Origin: Anaeromyxobacter sp.
Lineage (GTDB): Bacteria > Myxococcota > Myxococcia > Myxococcales > Anaeromyxobacteraceae
DNA length: 64,000 bases
Assembly (NCBI GenBank): GCA_049840735.1
Contig: JASGJN010000022.1
Coordinates: 160,001-224,000 of the forward strand
Direction: 5' to 3'
Within the stretch, counting starts at the first letter, position 1; each line of letters opens with the position of its first letter. Of the stretch, positions 39,404 through 51,488 are shown in pieces. Made by a program: the position numbers and the translations under genes. The notes beneath the pieces were generated by a model, which ran no database searches, was not told the DNA's origin, and saw nothing but the letters and a program-made list of their open reading frames with translations.

Positions 39404-39538
39404 GCGGCGCCCGTCATGGTTCGACTCCGGCCGGCCTGGGCAGGGCCGGCCGGTTCGACCGCCGGCCTACGCTGCTCGGAAATGCCGGATCGAGAAGCGA
39501 GCCTGTCTCCGGGCGAGAGGACCAGCGAGAACGCCTGT

Positions 39539-39586
39539 CCTTCGACTCCGCGCCCGCTGCGCGGGCGCTACGCTCAGGACGAACGG
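39539..39586 (+). repeat. REP-like palindromic repeat (degenerate copy also near 39420-39472)
   Basis: CCTTCGACTCCG-CGCCCGC TGC GCGGGCG-CTACGCTCAGGACGAACGG. Confidence 0.85.
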
Positions 39587-39685
39587 TTCCTGCGGCGCGC
39601 GCGCTCGAGCCTTGTTCCGCAGGCATTTCATCACGAGCGGGAGGCGAGGCGCGCGCCGCGCCTCTCCCGAGGCCTGAGGCCGCCT

Positions 39686-42917: not shown

Positions 42918-42955
42918 TTGACGCCGGCGGGTGAGGGTATTACCTACGAAAGTAA
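42918..42955 (+). promoter_or_regulatory. Probable TA promoter/operator
   Basis: TTGACG at 42918-42923; AT-rich TTAC-N8-GTAA inverted repeat at 42940-42955. Confidence 0.5.
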
Positions 42956-42972
42956 GAAACGGAGACTCCTCG

Positions 42973-43206
42973 ATGCGCATCACGGCCAAGGGGCAGGTGA
43001 CCATCCCGGTGGAGATCCGCGAGAAGCTGGGCCTCCTTCCCAACACCGAGGTCGAGTTCGAGCTGGACGGGAAGGGTGTACGCATCCGGCGGGCCAAGGA
43101 GAGCCGCAAGGCCAGCCGAGGTGCGGCTGCCGTCGCCCGGCTCCGAGGCCGCGGCACGGTCCGGATGAGCACCGACGAGATCATGGCGCTGACCCGGGGC
43201 GAGTGA
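42973..43206 (+). CDS. vapB: AbrB/MazE-type antitoxin (VapB)
   Basis: MRITAKGQVTIPVEIREKLGL; overlaps the toxin start (TGATG). Confidence 0.9.
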   Translation: MRITAKGQVTIPVEIREKLGLLPNTEVEFELDGKGVRIRRAKESRKASRGAAAVARLRGRGTVRMSTDEIMALTRGE

Positions 43207-43608
43207 TGGCCGTCCTGGTCGACAGCAACGTCCTCATCGACATCGCCACCGAGGACCCGGCGTGGGGCGAATGGTCCGCGCGAGCCCTCGAGCGTGCCGC
43301 CGACGAGACCGCCCTCGTCATCAACCCCATCATCTTCGCGGAGGTCTCCGTCAGGTTCGAACGGATTCGAGGAGCTCGAGGAGGTCCTTCCTCCCGAGGT
43401 CTTCCGCCGTGAGGCGCTGCCGTACCAGGCAGCGTTCCTGGCCGGGAAGAGCTTCCTCGCCTACCGGCGCCACGGCGGTCAGCGCCCTGCCCCCCTCCCC
43501 GACTTCTACATCGGGGCGCACGCCGCCGTGGCAGGCCACCAGCTGCTCACCCGGGACGCTACCCGCTACCGGACCTACTTCCCGCGGCTGGCGCTCATCG
43601 CGCCCTGA
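43206..43608 (+). CDS. vapC: PIN-domain VapC toxin (apparent +1 error at 43364-43368 GATTC)
   Basis: VLVDSNVLID, INPIIFAEVS, PDFYIGAHA, LLTRD. Confidence 0.9.
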
Positions 43609-45477: not shown

Positions 45478-46647
45478 TCACCACCCCTGCGCCGCCGCCG
45501 GCCGCGCCCCCACCGCCGCCTGGAGCGCCCGCTCCAGCCGCTCCGCCACGTGGCTCCAGAGGAACCGGCTGGCCACCCGGGCCCGGCCCGCCGCCCCCAT
45601 GCGCCGGGCGCGGAGCGGATCGGCCACCAGCCGCGCCAGCGCCGAGGCCAGCGCCACCGGATCGCCGGGCGGCACCAAGAGCCCGGTCTCGCCGTCGGCC
45701 ACGATCTCCGGCACCGCCTCGACGCGGGTGGCCACGCAGGGCACGCCGCAGGCCATGGCGTCCAGGTAGGCGATGCCGAACGGCTCGCGCAGCGTGGGGA
45801 CGCAGAGGACGCTGGCCTGGGAGAAGAGCCCGGGCAGCTCCTCCAGCGGCACCGGCCCCAGGTGGAAGGCGTTCTCCGGCAGAGGCGGCGGCCGGGGCGG
45901 CCCGGCGATCAGCAGCCGCGCCTTGGGGTGCTGGCGGCGCAGGCGCACGAAGGCGTCCAGCAGCACCGTCCCGCCCTTGCGCGTGAAGTCCTTGCCGGCG
46001 AAGAGGATGGTCCGGCCGTCGTCGCGCCGCGGCGCCCGGGCCGGGAAGACGTTGGCGCCGGCGCCCACCACCCGCACGCGCGCCGGGTCCACGCCGTAGT
46101 CGCGCAGCAGCGAGCCGGCCACGTGCTCGGAGAAGGTCGCGATCAGCGCCGCGCCGCGGTAGGCCTGCGCCTCTCGCCGGCGCCAGCCCTCGCCGTAGTC
46201 GGCCGGCGCCGGGAGGCCCGCCTGCGGCCAGGCCGGGCCGCGCATGCCCAGCGCGCGGGTGTGGTCGAGCAGCAGCGCGTAGGGGAAGGGCGGCGGCAGC
46301 CCGGGCGCGAAGAGCGCGCCGTTCTGGAGCACGATGTCCGGCGCCGGCCGCATGGTGCGCAAGAGCTGCCCGGCGCGGCGCGAGTGGGCGTCCCAGGCGA
46401 AGGTGGTGTTCCAGCGGTGCTGCAGGGCCTGCCGGCCGAAGCGGACGGCGGCGAGCGCCAGGTGGGCGAGCACCAGCGGGTGCGGGCGGGGCCGGCGCGA
46501 GGTCGCGTCGCGCGGCTCCAGCTCCCCGGTGGCGGCCACCAGCCGCAGGTCGTGGCCGCGCTCCACCAGCGCGCGCGCCACCGCGCCCGTGACGCCGCTC
46601 TGGGCGCCGTAGTGGACGTAGGCGATGTCGAGCCGGCCTGGGCGCAT
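45478..46647 (-). CDS. Glycosyltransferase family 4
   Basis: FAGKDFTRKG, EPFGIAYLDAMACGVP, VPEIVADGETGLLVPP. Confidence 0.9.
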   Translation of the reverse strand: MRPGRLDIAYVHYGAQSGVTGAVARALVERGHDLRLVAATGELEPRDATSRRPRPHPLVLAHLALAAVRFGRQALQHRWNTTFAWDAHSRRAGQLLRTMRPAPDIVLQNGALFAPGLPPPFPYALLLDHTRALGMRGPAWPQAGLPAPADYGEGWRRREAQAYRGAALIATFSEHVAGSLLRDYGVDPARVRVVGAGANVFPARAPRRDDGRTILFAGKDFTRKGGTVLLDAFVRLRRQHPKARLLIAGPPRPPPLPENAFHLGPVPLEELPGLFSQASVLCVPTLREPFGIAYLDAMACGVPCVATRVEAVPEIVADGETGLLVPPGDPVALASALARLVADPLRARRMGAAGRARVASRFLWSHVAERLERALQAAVGARPAAAQGW

Positions 46648-46769
46648 CCGCTCCCCCCGGCCAGAAAGGTGCGGCCCGGGGGCGAGGAGGGGAAGCCGTG
46701 TGGGGCTCGCGCCCGGGGGACGGGCGGGGAGGCGGGCGGTCCGGGGGCGCGGGCGACAGGGACCCCTGG

Positions 46770-46809
46770 CCTTCGACTTCGGGCCTGCAGGCGCAGGCCC
46801 TACGCTCAG
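46770..46809 (+). repeat. REP-like repeat, left part, interrupted by the IS
   Basis: CCTTCGACTTCG-hairpin-CTACGCTCAG; the remainder GCCGAACGG resumes at 48239. Confidence 0.85.
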
Positions 46810-46896
46810 ATGGAATGAAGCGGCTGGCCTCCACCTCGGGGTGGTGGCACGAATGCCCCACAACGCGGTCAGAGCCGCAGAGAGTGGAGACCAGCC

Positions 46897-47928
46897 GTGG
46901 ACCATATTGGCATCGACCTGCACAAGAAGGACAGCCAGCTTTGCATCCTGAACGCGGAGGGCGGGGTTCTGGAGGTGCGGATCCCCACCCGGGCCGACCG
47001 GTTCGCCGAGGTGCTCGCGAACAGGCCGCGGGCCAAGCTCCTGCTGGAGGCCTCCACGGAAAGCGAATGGGTGGCGCGGCACATCGAATCGCTCGGGCAC
47101 GAAGTGATCGTGGCCGACCCGAATTACGCGCCGATGTACGGGACGCGGACGAGGCGGGTAAAGACCGATCGGCGAGATGCCCGAGCGCTGGCCGAGGCTT
47201 GCCGTTCAGGGACCTACCGAGCGGCCCACCGGAGGTCGGAATCCAGGCGGACGGTCGCTGTCCGCTTGTCGGTGAGAGACACGCTGGTCCGCACCAGGTC
47301 GCGGTTCATCACGGTGACCCGGACGTCCTTGCGGAGCCATGGGCTACGGGCCCCGAGCTGTGAAGCCGAGCACTTCGCGCGGGTGGTGTTGGAGATGGCC
47401 CTGCCGGACGAGGTCCGCGACGAGGTCGAGCCGTTGCTGCTGATGTTCGACACGCTGAACGCCCGGATCGCCAAGGCCGACGCTGACCTCGAGGCCATCG
47501 CCCGCGACAGCGCAGTGGTACGGAGGCTCACGACGGCGCCAGGCGTGGGCGTCGTGACGGCCATTGCGTACGACGTCGTCATCGATGATCCCAAGCGCTT
47601 CCAGAGTGCCCAGCAGGTGTCCGCCTACTGCGGCCTGGTCCCTAGCGAGCTGAGCTCGGGCGAGAAACAGCGCAAGGGGCGGATCACCAAGACCGGCAAC
47701 GCCAGGGTGCGCTGGCTTCTCGTCCAGGCCGCGCACTGCGTCTTGCGCAGCAAGAGCGCAGAGTCGCTGCCGCTGCGCGAATGGGCGGGGAAGATCCACC
47801 GGCGGAGGGGACGCGCAGTCGCCGTCGTGGCGCTGGCGCGCAAACTCTCCGGAATCCTGTTCGCGATGATGAGGGACGGGAAGGACTTCGACGGCAGCCG
47901 CACCTGCAGGGGAAACGCGATGGCCTAG
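46897..47928 (+). CDS. IS110 family DEDD transposase/recombinase
   Basis: IGIDLHK, LLEAS, KTDRRDA (DEDD); PGVG, GLVP..SSG (catalytic Ser), GRITKTGN. Confidence 0.96.
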   Translation: MDHIGIDLHKKDSQLCILNAEGGVLEVRIPTRADRFAEVLANRPRAKLLLEASTESEWVARHIESLGHEVIVADPNYAPMYGTRTRRVKTDRRDARALAEACRSGTYRAAHRRSESRRTVAVRLSVRDTLVRTRSRFITVTRTSLRSHGLRAPSCEAEHFARVVLEMALPDEVRDEVEPLLLMFDTLNARIAKADADLEAIARDSAVVRRLTTAPGVGVVTAIAYDVVIDDPKRFQSAQQVSAYCGLVPSELSSGEKQRKGRITKTGNARVRWLLVQAAHCVLRSKSAESLPLREWAGKIHRRRGRAVAVVALARKLSGILFAMMRDGKDFDGSRTCRGNAMA

Positions 47929-47969
47929 ACGACCGAAATCGGACCCAGTCGGGCGGACGCCGGGCCGGA

Positions 47970-48160
47970 GATCCGGGAGTGAGGCGAAAGCGGGTTTCGA
48001 GACAGGGTGAGCGCGAGTTCGGCCTTGGCTGGTCACCAGGAACGGCCGTCGCTCAGATGGCGCCCCCTGCTCGAATCCCCCACTGCGCCGGCGGCACTGC
48101 CGCCCCTGTCGAGCGCGAATAGAAGGCTGATGGAACTCGCGTTCGCCTGACTCCCTGACC
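47970..48160 (+). ncRNA. Putative bridge/seekRNA of the IS1111-type element
   Basis: Stems 47975-47988/48142-48155 and 48012-48020/48133-48141; target matches GTTCGGCCT and CGCTCAG; donor match ATAGAAG; boundaries approximate. Confidence 0.7.
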
Positions 48161-48256
48161 GATGGCCAACCAGCGCCGCCCAGGCTTCAGGACAAACGAC
48201 ATCACCGGCCCTTGACCGGGGACGCCGCTTCATAGAAGGCCGAACGGCCCGGCCAC

Positions 48257-48304
48257 CCGTTCGGCCTGAGCGCAGCCGCCGCGGAGCGGCGGCGGAGTCG
48301 AAGG
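48257..48304 (-). repeat. REP-like repeat, inverted partner copy
   Basis: Minus strand reads CCTTCGACTCCG-hairpin-CTGCGCTCAGGCCGAACGG. Confidence 0.88.
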
Positions 48305-48341
48305 CCAGGCGCGGCTCGGCGGTCGTTGCGGCGCCGCTGGA

Positions 48342-48710
48342 CTACGCGTCCTTGGGCCGCTCGCCGTGGCGGGCGGTGACGACGGTGTGGATGCCGCCGC
48401 GGACCATGAAGTCGCCCACCACCTCGAGCCAGCGCGGCGCGATGGCGGCCACGATGTCGTCGCAGATGCGGTTGGTCACCGCCTCGTGGAACGTGCCCTC
48501 GTCGCGGAAGCTCCAGAGGTAGAGCTTGAGGCTCTTCAGCTCCACGCACTTCTCCGCCGGGATGTAGCGGATCCGGATGGTGGCGAAGTCCGGCTGGCCC
48601 GTCATCGGGCACACGCAGGTGAACTCCGGGCACTCCATCGCGACCTCGAACGGGCGCCCGGGCTTCGGGTTGGGGAAGGTCTGCAGCTCGCGGGAGGGCT
48701 TGGTGGCCAT
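48342..48710 (-). CDS. queF: NADPH-dependent preQ0 reductase (type I)
   Basis: PEFTCVCPMTGQPDFA, ELKSLKLYL, FHE, RGGI. Confidence 0.96.
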   Translation of the reverse strand: MATKPSRELQTFPNPKPGRPFEVAMECPEFTCVCPMTGQPDFATIRIRYIPAEKCVELKSLKLYLWSFRDEGTFHEAVTNRICDDIVAAIAPRWLEVVGDFMVRGGIHTVVTARHGERPKDA

Positions 48711-49402: not shown

Positions 49403-51488
49403 GTGACCGCACCCCTCGAGACGACCCCAGCGCCCACCGGCCTGCCGGAAAACGCCTTCCGCCCCCTCGAGCCGGGCGAGACCTTCCGGCCCATGGTGCC
49501 GGCCAGCGCCTCGCCGCCCGAGCTGACCGTCCGCTCGGTGGTGCAGGGCGTGATCTGGTCGGCGGTCTTCTCTGCGGCGGCGACCTTCATCATCCTGAAG
49601 CTCGGCCAGGGGATCGAGTCGGCCATCCCCATCTCCATCCTGGCGGTGGGCGTCTCGGCGCTGCTGGTGCAGGTGCTGAAGGCTCGCGGCTCCACGCTGC
49701 TGGAGAACGTGAACGTGCTGGCCTGGGGCGCCACCTCCGGCATCGTGGCCGGCGGCTCGGTCTTCACCATGCCGGCCATCTTCATCCTGGGCCTCGAGGG
49801 CCGGAGCAGCTTCTGGCAAATCTTCCTGGTGCCGCTGCTGGGCGCGGTGCTGGGCGTGTTCCTGCTGGCGCCCTTCCGCCGCTACTTCACCCACGACCTG
49901 CACGGCAAGCTGCCCTTCCCCGAGGGGCGCGCCACCACCGAGATCCTGGTGGCGGGCAACAAGGGCGGCGACAGCGCCATCACCCTGGCCTGGTCGGCCG
50001 GCCTGGCCGCGGCCTTCGACTTCGTCGGCCCGTCGATGAAGGGGTTCTCCGACACCTTCTCGACCGCCGCCATCGGCGCCTTCTCCACGCTGACCCACAA
50101 GGTGAAGGCGGTCTTCTCCATGAACACGTCCGCGGCCATCTTCGGCCTCGGCTACATCATGGGCGTGGACTACGCCGCCATCATCCTGGCCGGCTCCTTC
50201 ATCTCCTACTTCGTGCTGGTGCCGATCTTCGCCTGGGTGGGGCCGCACCTCGCGACCCCGCTGCTCCAGGGCGGCGCGCCGCTCGCGGAGCTGCCGTTCG
50301 ACGGGATCTTCAGGGACTACGCCCGCCCCATCGGCATCGGCGGCATCTTCGCGGCCGGGCTGCTCTCCATCCTCAAGATGTCGCCGGTGATCGGCCAGGC
50401 CATCAAGGTGGCCGTGGGCGAGGTGATCCGGCTGGCCCGCGGCGCCGGCTCGGTGGCCTCCTCCGAGCGGACCGACCGCTCCATCCCCATGGCCGGGGTG
50501 CTGGGCGGCATGGTCCTCACCACGCTGCTCACCTTCCTCTACTTCCGCTTCGCGGTGCTGGCGGACGAGCCCGGCGCCACCCGCCTGGCGCTCCTCTCCG
50601 CGCTGCTCACGCTGGGCATCTCCTTCCTGTTCGCGGCGGTCTCGGCCTGGGCCATCGCCATGATCTCCATCACGCCCATCTCCGGCATGACGCTCACCAC
50701 GCTGATCGTCACCGCCGTGCTGCTCTCGGCCATGGGGCTCAAGGGGCAGAGCGGCATGCTGCAGACGCTCCTCATCGGCGGCGTGGTCTGCACCGCGCTC
50801 TCCATGAGCGGCTCCCTGGTGACCCAGTACAAGATCGGCTACTGGCTGGGCTCGACGCCGCGGCGGAATCGAGTGGGGCAACATCATCGGCTCGGTGGTG
50901 GCGTCGCTCTTCACCACCGGCACCATCTTCCTGATGGCCAAGGTGTACGGCTTCACCGCCTCGCCCGAGCACCTGCACCCCATGGCCGCGCCGCAGCCCA
51001 ACGCCATGGCGGCGGTGCTGACCGGCGTGATGGGCACCGGCGACGCCCCCTGGTTCCTCTACGGCCTCGGCGCGGTCTTCGCGGTGGCGGCCGAGATGTG
51101 CGGCGTCTCCGGCCTGGCCCTGGCGCTGGGCATGTACCTGCCCATGGACCTCAACTCGCCGCTGATCCTCGGCGCGGCCACGGCCTGGCTGCTCAAGCGG
51201 TCGTCGAAGGACGAGAAGGTGGCCGCCGCCCGCCACGAGCGCGGCACGCTGATCGCGTCCGGCTTCATCGCCGGCGGCGCGCTCATCGGCGTCATCACCG
51301 CGCTGCTCCGGTTCCTCGAGGGCCAGTTCGGGATCACCCTCATCCCCGACCTGACCCACCTGCCCGGCCTCGGGCCGGTGCTGGAGGGCTGGGCCAACTG
51401 GTCCGGCCTGGGCGCGTTCCTGCTGCTGGGCGGGTTCGTGTACTGGATCAGCCGCCGGTCGGCGAAGGAGCCGGAGGGGCAGGCATAG
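49403..51488 (+). CDS. OPT family oligopeptide transporter (apparent +1 error at 50866-50870 GAATC)
   Basis: ESAIPISIL, LENV, LPFPEG, TPISGMT, GYWLGSTP, APQPNAM, LGMYLP, ASGFIAGG. Confidence 0.92.

What the first reader, a model, noticed from the sequence alone, without database searches (positions are those of the whole stretch)
46770..48304. IS1111-type element whose bridge/seekRNA guides match its own REP target
Seen: removing 46810-48238 restores CTACGCTC-AG-GCCGAACGG, nearly identical to the intact inverted REP next door (CTGCGCTCAGGCCGAACGG). The 3' non-coding end is predicted to fold (GGGAGTGAGGCGAA 47975-47988 with TTCGCCTGACTCCC 48142-48155; CGCGAGTTC with GAACTCGCG). It contains GTTCGGCCT (48017-48025, reverse complement of the target right arm plus core), CGCTCAG (48050-48056, target left arm plus core) and ATAGAAG (48119-48125, donor end plus core). 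Known: IS110/IS1111 recombinases are RNA-guided, and IS1111 members have sub-terminal IRs and a 3' RNA. Inference: this is an intact RNA-guided recombinase with readable specificity for this genome's REP family. I could not find the second donor guide; GAATC at 48073 may be a miscall.
Basis: partly seen in the sequence, partly recalled or inferred. Interest (0 to 1): 0.88.

Follow-up and report, generated by a model that had tools for sequence, protein, structure and literature searches.

The report
IS1111-type element with readable guide RNA
This is an intact jumping gene of a known RNA-guided kind whose RNA spells out the repeat it lands in; comparison with relatives suggests it uses the well-studied IS621 'bridge' mechanism with the recombination site turned back to front.

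Summary
Confirmed; a new member of a known kind (IS1111 group, IS110 family). The scan lists 72 earlier findings with the same key words on other DNA. Five copies sit in CGCTC|AG|GCCGAAC, one variant of an abundant REP repeat (97 of 447 empty REP-context sites). Across 69 homologue clusters the two target guides and the 3' donor guide track each element's own flanks and ends; the left-arm guide survives tree-aware tests. Added reading: taken in reverse complement, the site has a CT core, a 9-nt 5' guide, a 5+2-nt 3' guide followed by handshake bases, and each guide starts two bases after a conserved G, as in IS621. The 'reversed guide order' of IS1111 would then be an inverted site, with the bottom strand exchanged first. 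I did not find this in print; the handshake covariation rests on few independent changes. No expression data.

The parts
46765..46807 (+). Left part of the interrupted REP (CCTTCGACT motif, stem-loop, CTACGCTC); left target arm CGCTC = 46803-46807
46808..48236 (+). IS1111-group element, 1429 bp, with 7-nt left and 3-nt right extensions beyond the sub-terminal repeats
   Evidence: 7/3 rule from PMC11187229
46808..46814 (+). Left terminal extension AGATGGA: element-borne AG core (46808-46809) plus start of the donor arm
   Evidence: left core AG in 59 of 60 clusters, right core AG in only 42 of 60
46815..46824 (+). Left sub-terminal inverted repeat ATGAAGCGGC
46820..46896 (+). Structured 5' leader; outer stem predicted to cover the ribosome-binding site and start codon
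   Evidence: predicted fold and alignment of homologous left ends; not tested for covariation
46897..47928 (+). DEDD recombinase, 343 aa; D7, E51, D91, D94, S254
   Evidence: Pfam PF01548 and PF02371, NCBIfam NF033542 249.5 bits, cut-off 140, motif positions, S254 aligned with the serine of IS621's SG motif
47972..48158 (+). Predicted bridge/seek RNA (about 185 nt, exact ends unknown): outer stem closing a multiloop with the target-binding arm and the donor hairpin
48017..48025 (+). 5' target guide GTTCGGCCT, complementary to core plus 7 right-flank bases (equivalent of IS621 LTG if the site is read backwards)
   Evidence: 435 of 530 matches vs 240 +/- 10 permuted, 53 clusters, best of three registers
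48050..48056 (+). 3' target guide CGCTC + AG, same sense as left flank plus core (equivalent of IS621 RTG)
   Evidence: 39, 48, 51, 50, 53 of 57 at flank positions -5..-1, 14 and 12 of 57 at -7 and -6; tree-aware test
48057..48058 (+). Candidate target-loop handshake bases AT, equal to the first two bases of the element after the core
   Evidence: 56 and 53 of 60 match the donor, 14 of 120 match the target; 1-4 independent contrasts only
48075..48083 (+).
   Evidence: invariant G48073 and A48075 in 62 of 62; family-level duplex test 0 of 20000 permutations, own donor only 8th of 20 for this element
48119..48125 (+). 3' donor guide ATAGA + AG, same sense as the right end plus core
   Evidence: 298 of 300 matches vs 264 permuted; the one variable position 59 of 60
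48126..48127 (+). Candidate donor-loop handshake bases GC, equal to the first two target bases after the core
   Evidence: 76 of 120 match target, 4 of 120 match donor; covariation not replicated in the second set
48212..48217 (+). TTGACC, candidate -35 box of a junction promoter
   Evidence: TTGAC at 19-20 nt from the right end in 41 of 60 clusters, at 14-15 nt in 10, absent in 9; -10 across the junction is weak (GAAGAT)
48224..48233 (-). Right sub-terminal inverted repeat (GCCGCTTCAT on +), followed by the 3-nt extension AGA 48234-48236
48237..48245 (+). Target-derived AG plus right target arm GCCGAAC
48257..48309 (-). Intact inverted REP partner; itself a perfect match to both target guides

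Best explanation
An intact, recently active IS1111-group insertion sequence. Its DEDD/serine recombinase binds an RNA made from the 3' non-coding end. Two guides in that RNA open the 14-bp target CGCTC-AG-GCCGAAC, found almost only in one variant of this genome's REP repeat; two further guides read the joined ends of the circular element. The geometry is that of IS621 with the site inverted relative to the gene: in reverse complement the target is GTTCGGC-CT-GAGCG and the donor ATTCCAT-CT-TCTAT; the 5' guide of each loop reads 7 bases plus core, the 3' guide 5 bases plus core and then two handshake bases that pair only after strand exchange (4 of 4 after, 0 of 4 before, in this element), which would favour insertion over excision. 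The first cut and exchange would be on the bottom strand, between left flank and AG, so the element carries its own AG in at the left and leaves the target's two bases at the right. Shown here: family, ends, copies, target, covariation of three guides. Inferred: RNA expression, circle, promoter, strand order, handshake function, use of the 5' donor guide.
For: Protein family and catalytic residues. 5 of 5 copies in the same 14-mer; two copies 100% identical at different sites; chance that five random REP insertions all hit this variant about 0.005 among G..GAAC sites, 0.0006 among all REP-context sites. Covariation in 41 first-set clusters and again in 28 clusters fetched later; left-arm guide stops sharply after 5 bases and holds in tree-aware contrasts, e.g. 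position -3: 10.5 of 13 contrasts same way, 0 opposite, p about 0.001; among 24 near-identical RNAs of cluster L007 the 5' guide changes with the right flank. Three conserved helices: 99% of cells paired, 5 pairs with changes on both sides vs 1.6 shuffled, 0 of 500. IS621 numbers from PMC11208158: LTG 50-58, RTG 74/77-80, HSG 81-82 and 166-167, conserved G48, G72, G121, G155, cut 3' of CT, second core base stricter than first. Here G lies two bases before all four guides (62, 60, 62, 62 of 62); 9 of the 10 IS621 donor positions named in that text equal the reversed donor; target cores are AG 42, AA 13, GG 4, AT 1 of 60, so the base equivalent to T9 is the stricter one; in 15 of 15 clusters with different cores at the two ends, AG is on the left. 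IS4321 (27% identity, L191) shows the same layout. Single-strand integration reported for CazIS110-1 (bioRxiv 10.1101/2025.10.25.684509) would explain the one-sided core.
Against: No expression, circle or activity data. The 5' donor guide pairs poorly with this element's own end (-2.9 kcal/mol, 8th of 20 donor types) and shows no signal inside the T-start clade, which has only 3 donor types. The 5' target guide pairs in three registers (25, 22, 6 of 53), and 13 of 15 non-AG right cores go with the shifted register, so the geometry is looser than in IS621. Handshake covariation rests on few events: first base 1 supported contrast; second base 2 of 4 same way, 0 opposite, p = 0.5; donor-loop second base 21 of 36 vs 12.0 in the first set but 8 of 24 vs 8.1 in the second, and 2.2 of 10 contrasts. 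The right-end guide's variable base has only 2 supported contrasts. One-sided cores could also reflect selection for AG at the left end. Two of the four IS4321 guides were placed by eye; L193 fits with one-base offsets; L192 and L194 could not be parsed. ISPpu9, an IS110-group element with an upstream RNA, also has an AG core (PMC12288879), so AG alone does not mark an inverted site. Unconstrained folding pairs parts of the guides.
Confidence: 0.75

Rival explanations
1. Seek-only model: the RNA guides target choice, but the element's ends are recognised mainly by the protein at the sub-terminal repeats; the donor-matching stretches are partial or vestigial and IS1111 chemistry differs from IS621's.
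For: An 82-nt target-only RNA sufficed for ISEc11 movement and the authors caution that the two families may differ (PMC11187229). The 5' donor guide is degenerate in this element while the 10-bp repeats are conserved in nearly all homologues. Few independent changes support the donor guides.
Against: The 3' donor guide matches the right end at 298 of 300 positions with three states at the variable base; L019 has AA cores at both ends and AA in both RNA loops; the 5' donor segment gives a family-level signal that repeats in the second set (41 of 20000) while a neighbouring control segment gives none. bioRxiv 10.1101/2025.10.25.684509 explains target-only activity as partial transfer.
Confidence: 0.15
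2. Dual match: base pairing to the guides is needed but the REP hairpin or cruciform beside the site is a second determinant, as reported for ISPpu10. Compatible with the best explanation.
For: All five sites have the REP stem-loop immediately left of the target; the restored site folds into a three-armed structure with the target in a 16-bp stem; stem-loop loss cut ISPpu10 integration to 44% (bioRxiv 10.64898/2026.03.19.712850).
Against: 97 of the 101 perfect 14-mers are in REP context anyway, so the five insertions cannot separate sequence from structure; homologues use many different targets, whose structure I did not test.
Confidence: 0.3
3. The matches are chance or captured flank sequence, and target choice is by protein alone.
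For: Short words in a 73% G+C genome; no RNA data.
Against: Expected counts 0.002-0.02 per word; guides change with flanks across homologues in both sets and across tree contrasts.
Confidence: 0.02

Closest known systems
IS1111-group elements with a 3' seekRNA: ISEc11, ISKpn4, ISPst6, ISPa11 (PMC11187229); IS4321 (locus L191)
   Same: DEDD transposase of 330-350 aa with GL-P----SG motif; sub-terminal repeats with 7-nt left and 3-nt right extensions; long non-coding end downstream; top-strand match 5' of bottom-strand match; ISPa11 also targets REPs.
   Different: Distant sequence (best plasmid hit 35.5%, IS4321 family 27%); repeat is 10 bp against the usual 11-13; different target; donor guides and candidate handshake bases, which the parts of that paper I read do not describe, can be placed here.
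IS621 / ISCro4 bridge recombinases (PMC11208160, PMC11208158, PMC13626964)
   Same: Catalytic set D-E-D-D plus serine; REP target; four guides in the order target loop then donor loop; in reverse complement the same CT core, 7+2 and 5+2 guide lengths, G two bases before each guide, handshake dinucleotides (AU/GC here, AU/GU in wild-type IS621).
   Different: RNA downstream of the gene; site inverted relative to the gene; donor guides in a multiloop; long sub-terminal repeats; natural 3' target guide already 7 nt; 5' guides flexible or degenerate. Only weak sequence likeness (E 9e-13).
ISPpu10 and ISPpu9 of Pseudomonas putida (bioRxiv 10.64898/2026.03.19.712850; PMC12288879)
   Same: IS110-family elements that insert into REP sequences next to a stem-loop.
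   Different: IS110 group: RNA upstream, no long sub-terminal repeats; ISPpu10 has a CT core in gene orientation, ISPpu9 an AG core.
Nearest sequence relative, locus L001 (67% amino-acid identity)
   Same: Same left junction and identical 3' target guide TCGCTCAGAT.
   Different: 5' target guide GGCTCATCCT predicts a different right arm of the same repeat type; its right flank is missing from the contig, so this is untested (L071 shows a like pairing with its flank present).

Membership tests
IS110 family | [quoted passage not shown] | tested here: met
IS110 family | Specific target, one orientation, no true target duplication | tested here: met
   5 of 5 copies at the same site and orientation; homologues with non-AG targets show the second AG is not a duplication
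IS110 family | Circular intermediate with abutted ends | not testable with these tools
   no sequencing run listed
IS1111 group | Sub-terminal inverted repeats with 7-nt left and 3-nt right extensions | tested here: met
   10-bp perfect repeat, AGATGGA left, AGA right; criteria
IS1111 group | Long non-coding end downstream of the gene, short upstream | tested here: met
   308 nt downstream, 89 nt upstream
IS1111 group | Transposase of 330-350 aa with GL-P----SG motif, grouping with IS1111 in a tree | tested here: inconclusive
   length 343 and motif met; no tree with named IS1111 and IS110 references was built
IS1111 group | Junction promoter from -35 in the right end and -10 at the left end | tested here: inconclusive
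   conserved TTGAC, weak -10 in this element
seekRNA / bridge RNA systems | Two target guides, top-strand match 5' of bottom-strand match, covarying with the target | tested here: met
seekRNA / bridge RNA systems | Two donor guides | tested here: inconclusive
   3' guide met; 5' guide supported across the family, weak in this element
seekRNA / bridge RNA systems | RNA is made, binds the recombinase, is needed and can be reprogrammed | not testable with these tools
   needs experiments
IS621-type geometry | Handshake dinucleotides that pair with the partner DNA after exchange | tested here: inconclusive
   post-exchange match 109 of 120 and 76 of 120, pre-exchange 14 and 4 of 120; too few independent contrasts

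The most novel reading that the evidence does not exclude
The reversed guide order that was taken as a sign that IS1111 and IS110 may work differently is only an inversion of the recombination site relative to the gene. IS1111 bridge RNAs follow the IS621 code read backwards, including CT core, guide lengths, the G two bases before each guide and handshake bases; the bottom strand is exchanged first, left of the core, and only that exchange is fixed in genomes, which explains the 7-nt/3-nt end asymmetry of the group. This gives a design rule for programming IS1111 recombinases, including their insertion/excision bias.
Probability: 0.55. Interest if true: 0.6.

Novelty: new member of a known kind. 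Interest (0 to 1): 0.38.

Why it matters
The element itself is ordinary after 2024: RNA-guided IS110/IS1111 elements and REP targeting are established. It is a clean natural example (about 100 empty perfect sites and about 350 near-miss REP variants in one genome, useful for a specificity test). The wider value is in the homologue set: many natural retargetings let one map all four guides and candidate handshake bases in an IS1111-group clade. If the inverted-site reading holds, it settles an open point between the seekRNA and bridge-RNA descriptions, predicts which strand is cut first, and transfers IS621 design rules to a group for which my search found no solved structure.

Tried and rejected
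It would also bury four guide bases. Rejected. GAATC as a miscall: rejected. Ends 46810-48238: same restored site, but homologues favour 46808-48236. ATAGAAGGCTGA matching the right junction over 11 of 12 bases: only the first two bases after the core show any trend; the rest is conserved scaffold. Complementarity between the leader motif ACGCG(C/G)TCA and the RNA's GAGCGCG: better read as part of a hairpin inside the leader (by eye, no control). Solo ends or stand-alone RNA copies in the genome: none; 5 hits, all in the five copies; three one-mismatch hits to the left end look like chance. Rfam: no match. Sequencing runs: none was listed, no RNA holder listed; not evidence either way. A REP-associated Y1 transposase for this repeat: six weak PF01797 matches, none flanked by clusters of the motif. 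Close relatives in the genus: none in 36 genomes at E 1e-60 with 5 candidates scored per genome. Generality check on four annotated plasmid elements: two parsed, two failed. Print searches for the inverted-site or IS1111-handshake reading; not found in the passages read.

Full report
Observation. The window lies in a 6.67-Mb, 73.5% G+C genome. The ORF 46897-47928 encodes 343 aa with PF01548 and PF02371, NCBIfam NF033542 at 249.5 bits against a cut-off of 140 and D7, E51, D91, D94, S254 (serine aligned with that of IS621's SG motif). A perfect 10-bp sub-terminal repeat lies at 46815-46824 and 48224-48233, with 7 bases outside it on the left (counting AG) and 3 on the right, the rule given for IS1111 in PMC11187229. 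The three guide words are expected 0.002, 0.021 and 0.002 times in a 308-nt end; 47970-48160 folds at z = -4.0.

Copies and target. The genome holds five copies, 98.6-100% identical; three have the full ORF, two are frameshifted (167 and 182 aa). All five have CTACGCTC-AG on the left and AG-GCCGAACGG on the right with different outer flanks. Of 447 empty CGCTCAG sites with the REP motif upstream, 114 continue GGCGAAC, 97 GCCGAAC, 73 CCCGAAC, 40 GACGAAC; five of five in the GCC class has a chance of about 0.0006, or 0.005 counting only the 305 G..GAAC sites. The GCC class is the one that matches the 5' guide fully. The perfect 14-mer occurs 101 times empty against 0.12 expected; 97 of these are in REP context. 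The exact 19-mer occurs in 1 of 36 other genomes of the genus and the element in none of them at E 1e-60 with five candidates scored per genome.

Homologues. I fetched 80 loci from genome contigs, 19 from other genomes of the order and 80 from metagenomes. With the window, 180 were examined; 148 gave the RNA anchor pattern, 32 did not and were dropped; they form 70 clusters at 90% RNA identity; L113 was dropped as mis-parsed, leaving 69, of which 41 contain first-set loci and 28 only later loci. The anchor pattern demanded conserved scaffold words and A[GA] at the target-loop core, so conservation of those letters is partly built in; the guides were free. An unbiased scan of 10544 column-site pairs in the first set put left-flank -1..-4 against 48051-48054 and right-end -4 against 48120 on top (z 6.9-7.9). 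In all clusters the left flank matches 48050-48054 at 39, 48, 51, 50, 53 of 57 and drops to 14 and 12 at positions -7 and -6; 267 of 399 against 117 permuted; second set alone 95 of 140 against 43.5. On a FastTree of 69 transposases, contrasts go the same way at -1, -2, -3 and partly -4 (p 0.001-0.04 for the commoner bases; of 28 base-position tests those at -5 did not reach 0.05 by median p, and -6 and -7 showed nothing). The 5' target guide matches the right flank at 435 of 530 against 240, best of three registers, and 164 of 200 against 98 in the second set; the registers are 25 as in the window, 22 shifted towards the left flank, 6 the other way. Within cluster L007 (24 loci) four 5' guide types go with matching right flanks in most loci, 8 of 9 bases in one type and a one-base slip in another. 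The 3' donor guide matches the right end at 298 of 300 against 264, but four of its five positions hardly vary and the fifth has two supported contrasts.

RNA structure. An alignment of 62 of the 69 clusters (seven with a long insertion in the inner stem left out) gives three helices: 48011-14 with 48060-63, 48027-29 with 48045-47, 48085-89 with 48111-16; 99% of cells pair, five pairs change on both sides against 1.6 shuffled (structure derived from the same alignment). With the guides held open the RNA folds at -86.7 against -97.4 kcal/mol unconstrained. The donor guides thus lie in a multiloop, as PMC11208160 says of many IS1111 elements.

The fourth guide. G48073 and A48075 are invariant in 62 of 62. 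The 12 bases 48073-48084 pair better with the element's own left end than with others across the family (0 of 20000; second set 41 of 20000; non-T clade 8 of 20000; T-start clade no signal, three donor types); a neighbouring control segment shows nothing. Several homologues spell it almost fully (L060, L086, L014). In the window element it is poor: own donor 8th of 20. It is the same in all five copies.

The IS621 geometry read backwards. PMC11187229 notes that guide order is reversed between the families and that the mechanics may differ. PMC11208158 gives for IS621: LTG 50-58, RTG 77-80 extendable to 74, LDG 123-130, RDG from 157, conserved G48, G72, G121, G155 and A43, A67, A116, A150, handshake bases 81-82 and 166-167, first cut on the RTG-bound strand 3' of CT, and a stricter second core base. 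Reversed, the window target is GTTCGGC CT GAGCG and the donor ATTCCAT CT TCTAT; nine of the ten IS621 donor positions named in that text agree. Here each guide starts two bases after a G (62, 60, 62, 62 of 62), with an A five or six bases before that G for three of four. The 3' guides read exactly five flank bases plus core; the next two bases equal the partner DNA: target loop 109 of 120 against the donor and 14 of 120 against the target, donor loop 76 of 120 against the target and 4 of 120 against the donor. In this element all four pair after exchange and none before; wild-type IS621 has three and one (PMC13626964). Left cores are AG in 59 of 60 (the AA exception, L019, has AA in both RNA loops); right cores are AG 42, AA 13, GG 4, AT 1; in 15 of 15 clusters with unlike cores AG is on the left, and where the target has GG the 5' guide reads CC, so this is the true target. 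That puts the ends at 46808-48236 and fits a first exchange on the bottom strand left of the core. IS4321 in L191 shows a 9-nt 5' guide, an 8-nt match to the right junction and G two bases before all four guides, two of them placed by eye.

Against this reading. Much of the handshake match is conserved identity rather than repeated change: one supported contrast for the first base, two of four for the second, and the donor-loop signal did not repeat in the second set. The 5' guide shifts register, mostly in the elements with non-AG cores. Selection could keep AG on the left. ISPpu9 has an AG core with an upstream RNA. One of four plasmid elements fitted well, one with offsets, two were not parsed. 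Nothing here shows RNA, circle or activity.

Literature seen. PMC11187229: parts 1-5 of 9 of the text (abstract to start of methods). [quoted passage not shown] PMC11208158: passages and sections 7, 8, 12. PMC13626964: abstract, outline, passages. PMC13604230: passages and tables section. PMC12288879, bioRxiv 2024.01.24.577089, 2025.10.25.684509, 2026.03.19.712850, 2026.01.12.699009, 2025.05.14.653916, 2026.08.31.748434: passages only; preprint supplements closed. Searches did not show the inverted-site or IS1111-handshake reading; subscription papers are mostly outside the library. The label attC for some homologue targets and the host's likely taxon rest on recall, not on a call.

Verdict. 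Observation confirmed, interpretation supported with three corrections. New member of a known kind; interest 0.38. The most novel reading (IS1111 as IS621 with an inverted site, bottom strand first, readable handshake bases) has probability about 0.55 and would deserve about 0.6.

Noticed in passing
window 46820-46896 and left ends of about 60 homologue clusters: Conserved three-helix 5' leader (GGCTGG...CCAGCC outer stem over the ribosome-binding site, GTGG..GC/GC..CCAC hairpin, GCGG/CCGC or GCGC/GCGC hairpin); may be a translational control element or a recombinase-binding site.
   Followed up: partly
L026, L003, L015, L117, L127 and related Gemmatimonadota loci: A clade of homologues inserts just inside palindromes bounded by CCTAAC...GTTAGG, which look like integron attC sites (label from recall); these have AA right cores and a shifted 5' guide register.
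   Followed up: partly
right ends of 60 homologue clusters: The TTGAC box sits at two distances from the right end, 19-20 nt (41) or 14-15 nt (10), about half a helical turn apart; the nearer class forms a good -10 (TAGGAT type) with the left end, the farther class, including this element, a poor one.
   Followed up: no
G000 genome-wide; window 39531-39589 and 48257-48309: About 450 copies of a CCTTCGACT-hairpin-CGCTCAG REP in four main right-arm variants, many in tandem arrays (C10, C20, C26); the exact GCC variant is nearly absent from 36 genomes of the genus; no flanked Y1 transposase found.
   Followed up: partly
G000 C26:118176-119612 and C4:42302-43733: Two frameshifted copies with short duplications; differences between copies are almost all C/T or A/G and two (48030, 48110 equivalents) fall in the RNA outside the guides.
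   Followed up: no
L024, L025, L028, L063, L072, L141, L165: The inner stem-loop between the two target guides carries 10-25 extra bases without change of guide spacing to the anchors, so this arm tolerates insertions.
   Followed up: no
window 49403-51488: An oligopeptide-transporter-like membrane protein gene appears split over two frames near 50900 (label from recall; not scanned).
   Followed up: no
window 42931-43608: A small AbrB-like gene followed by a PIN-like toxin gene that appears split over two frames (labels from recall; not scanned).
   Followed up: no
window 45478-46646 and 48342-48710: The element lies between queF (Pfam PF14489) and a glycosyltransferase-like gene (label from recall), both on the minus strand, without breaking either.
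   Followed up: partly
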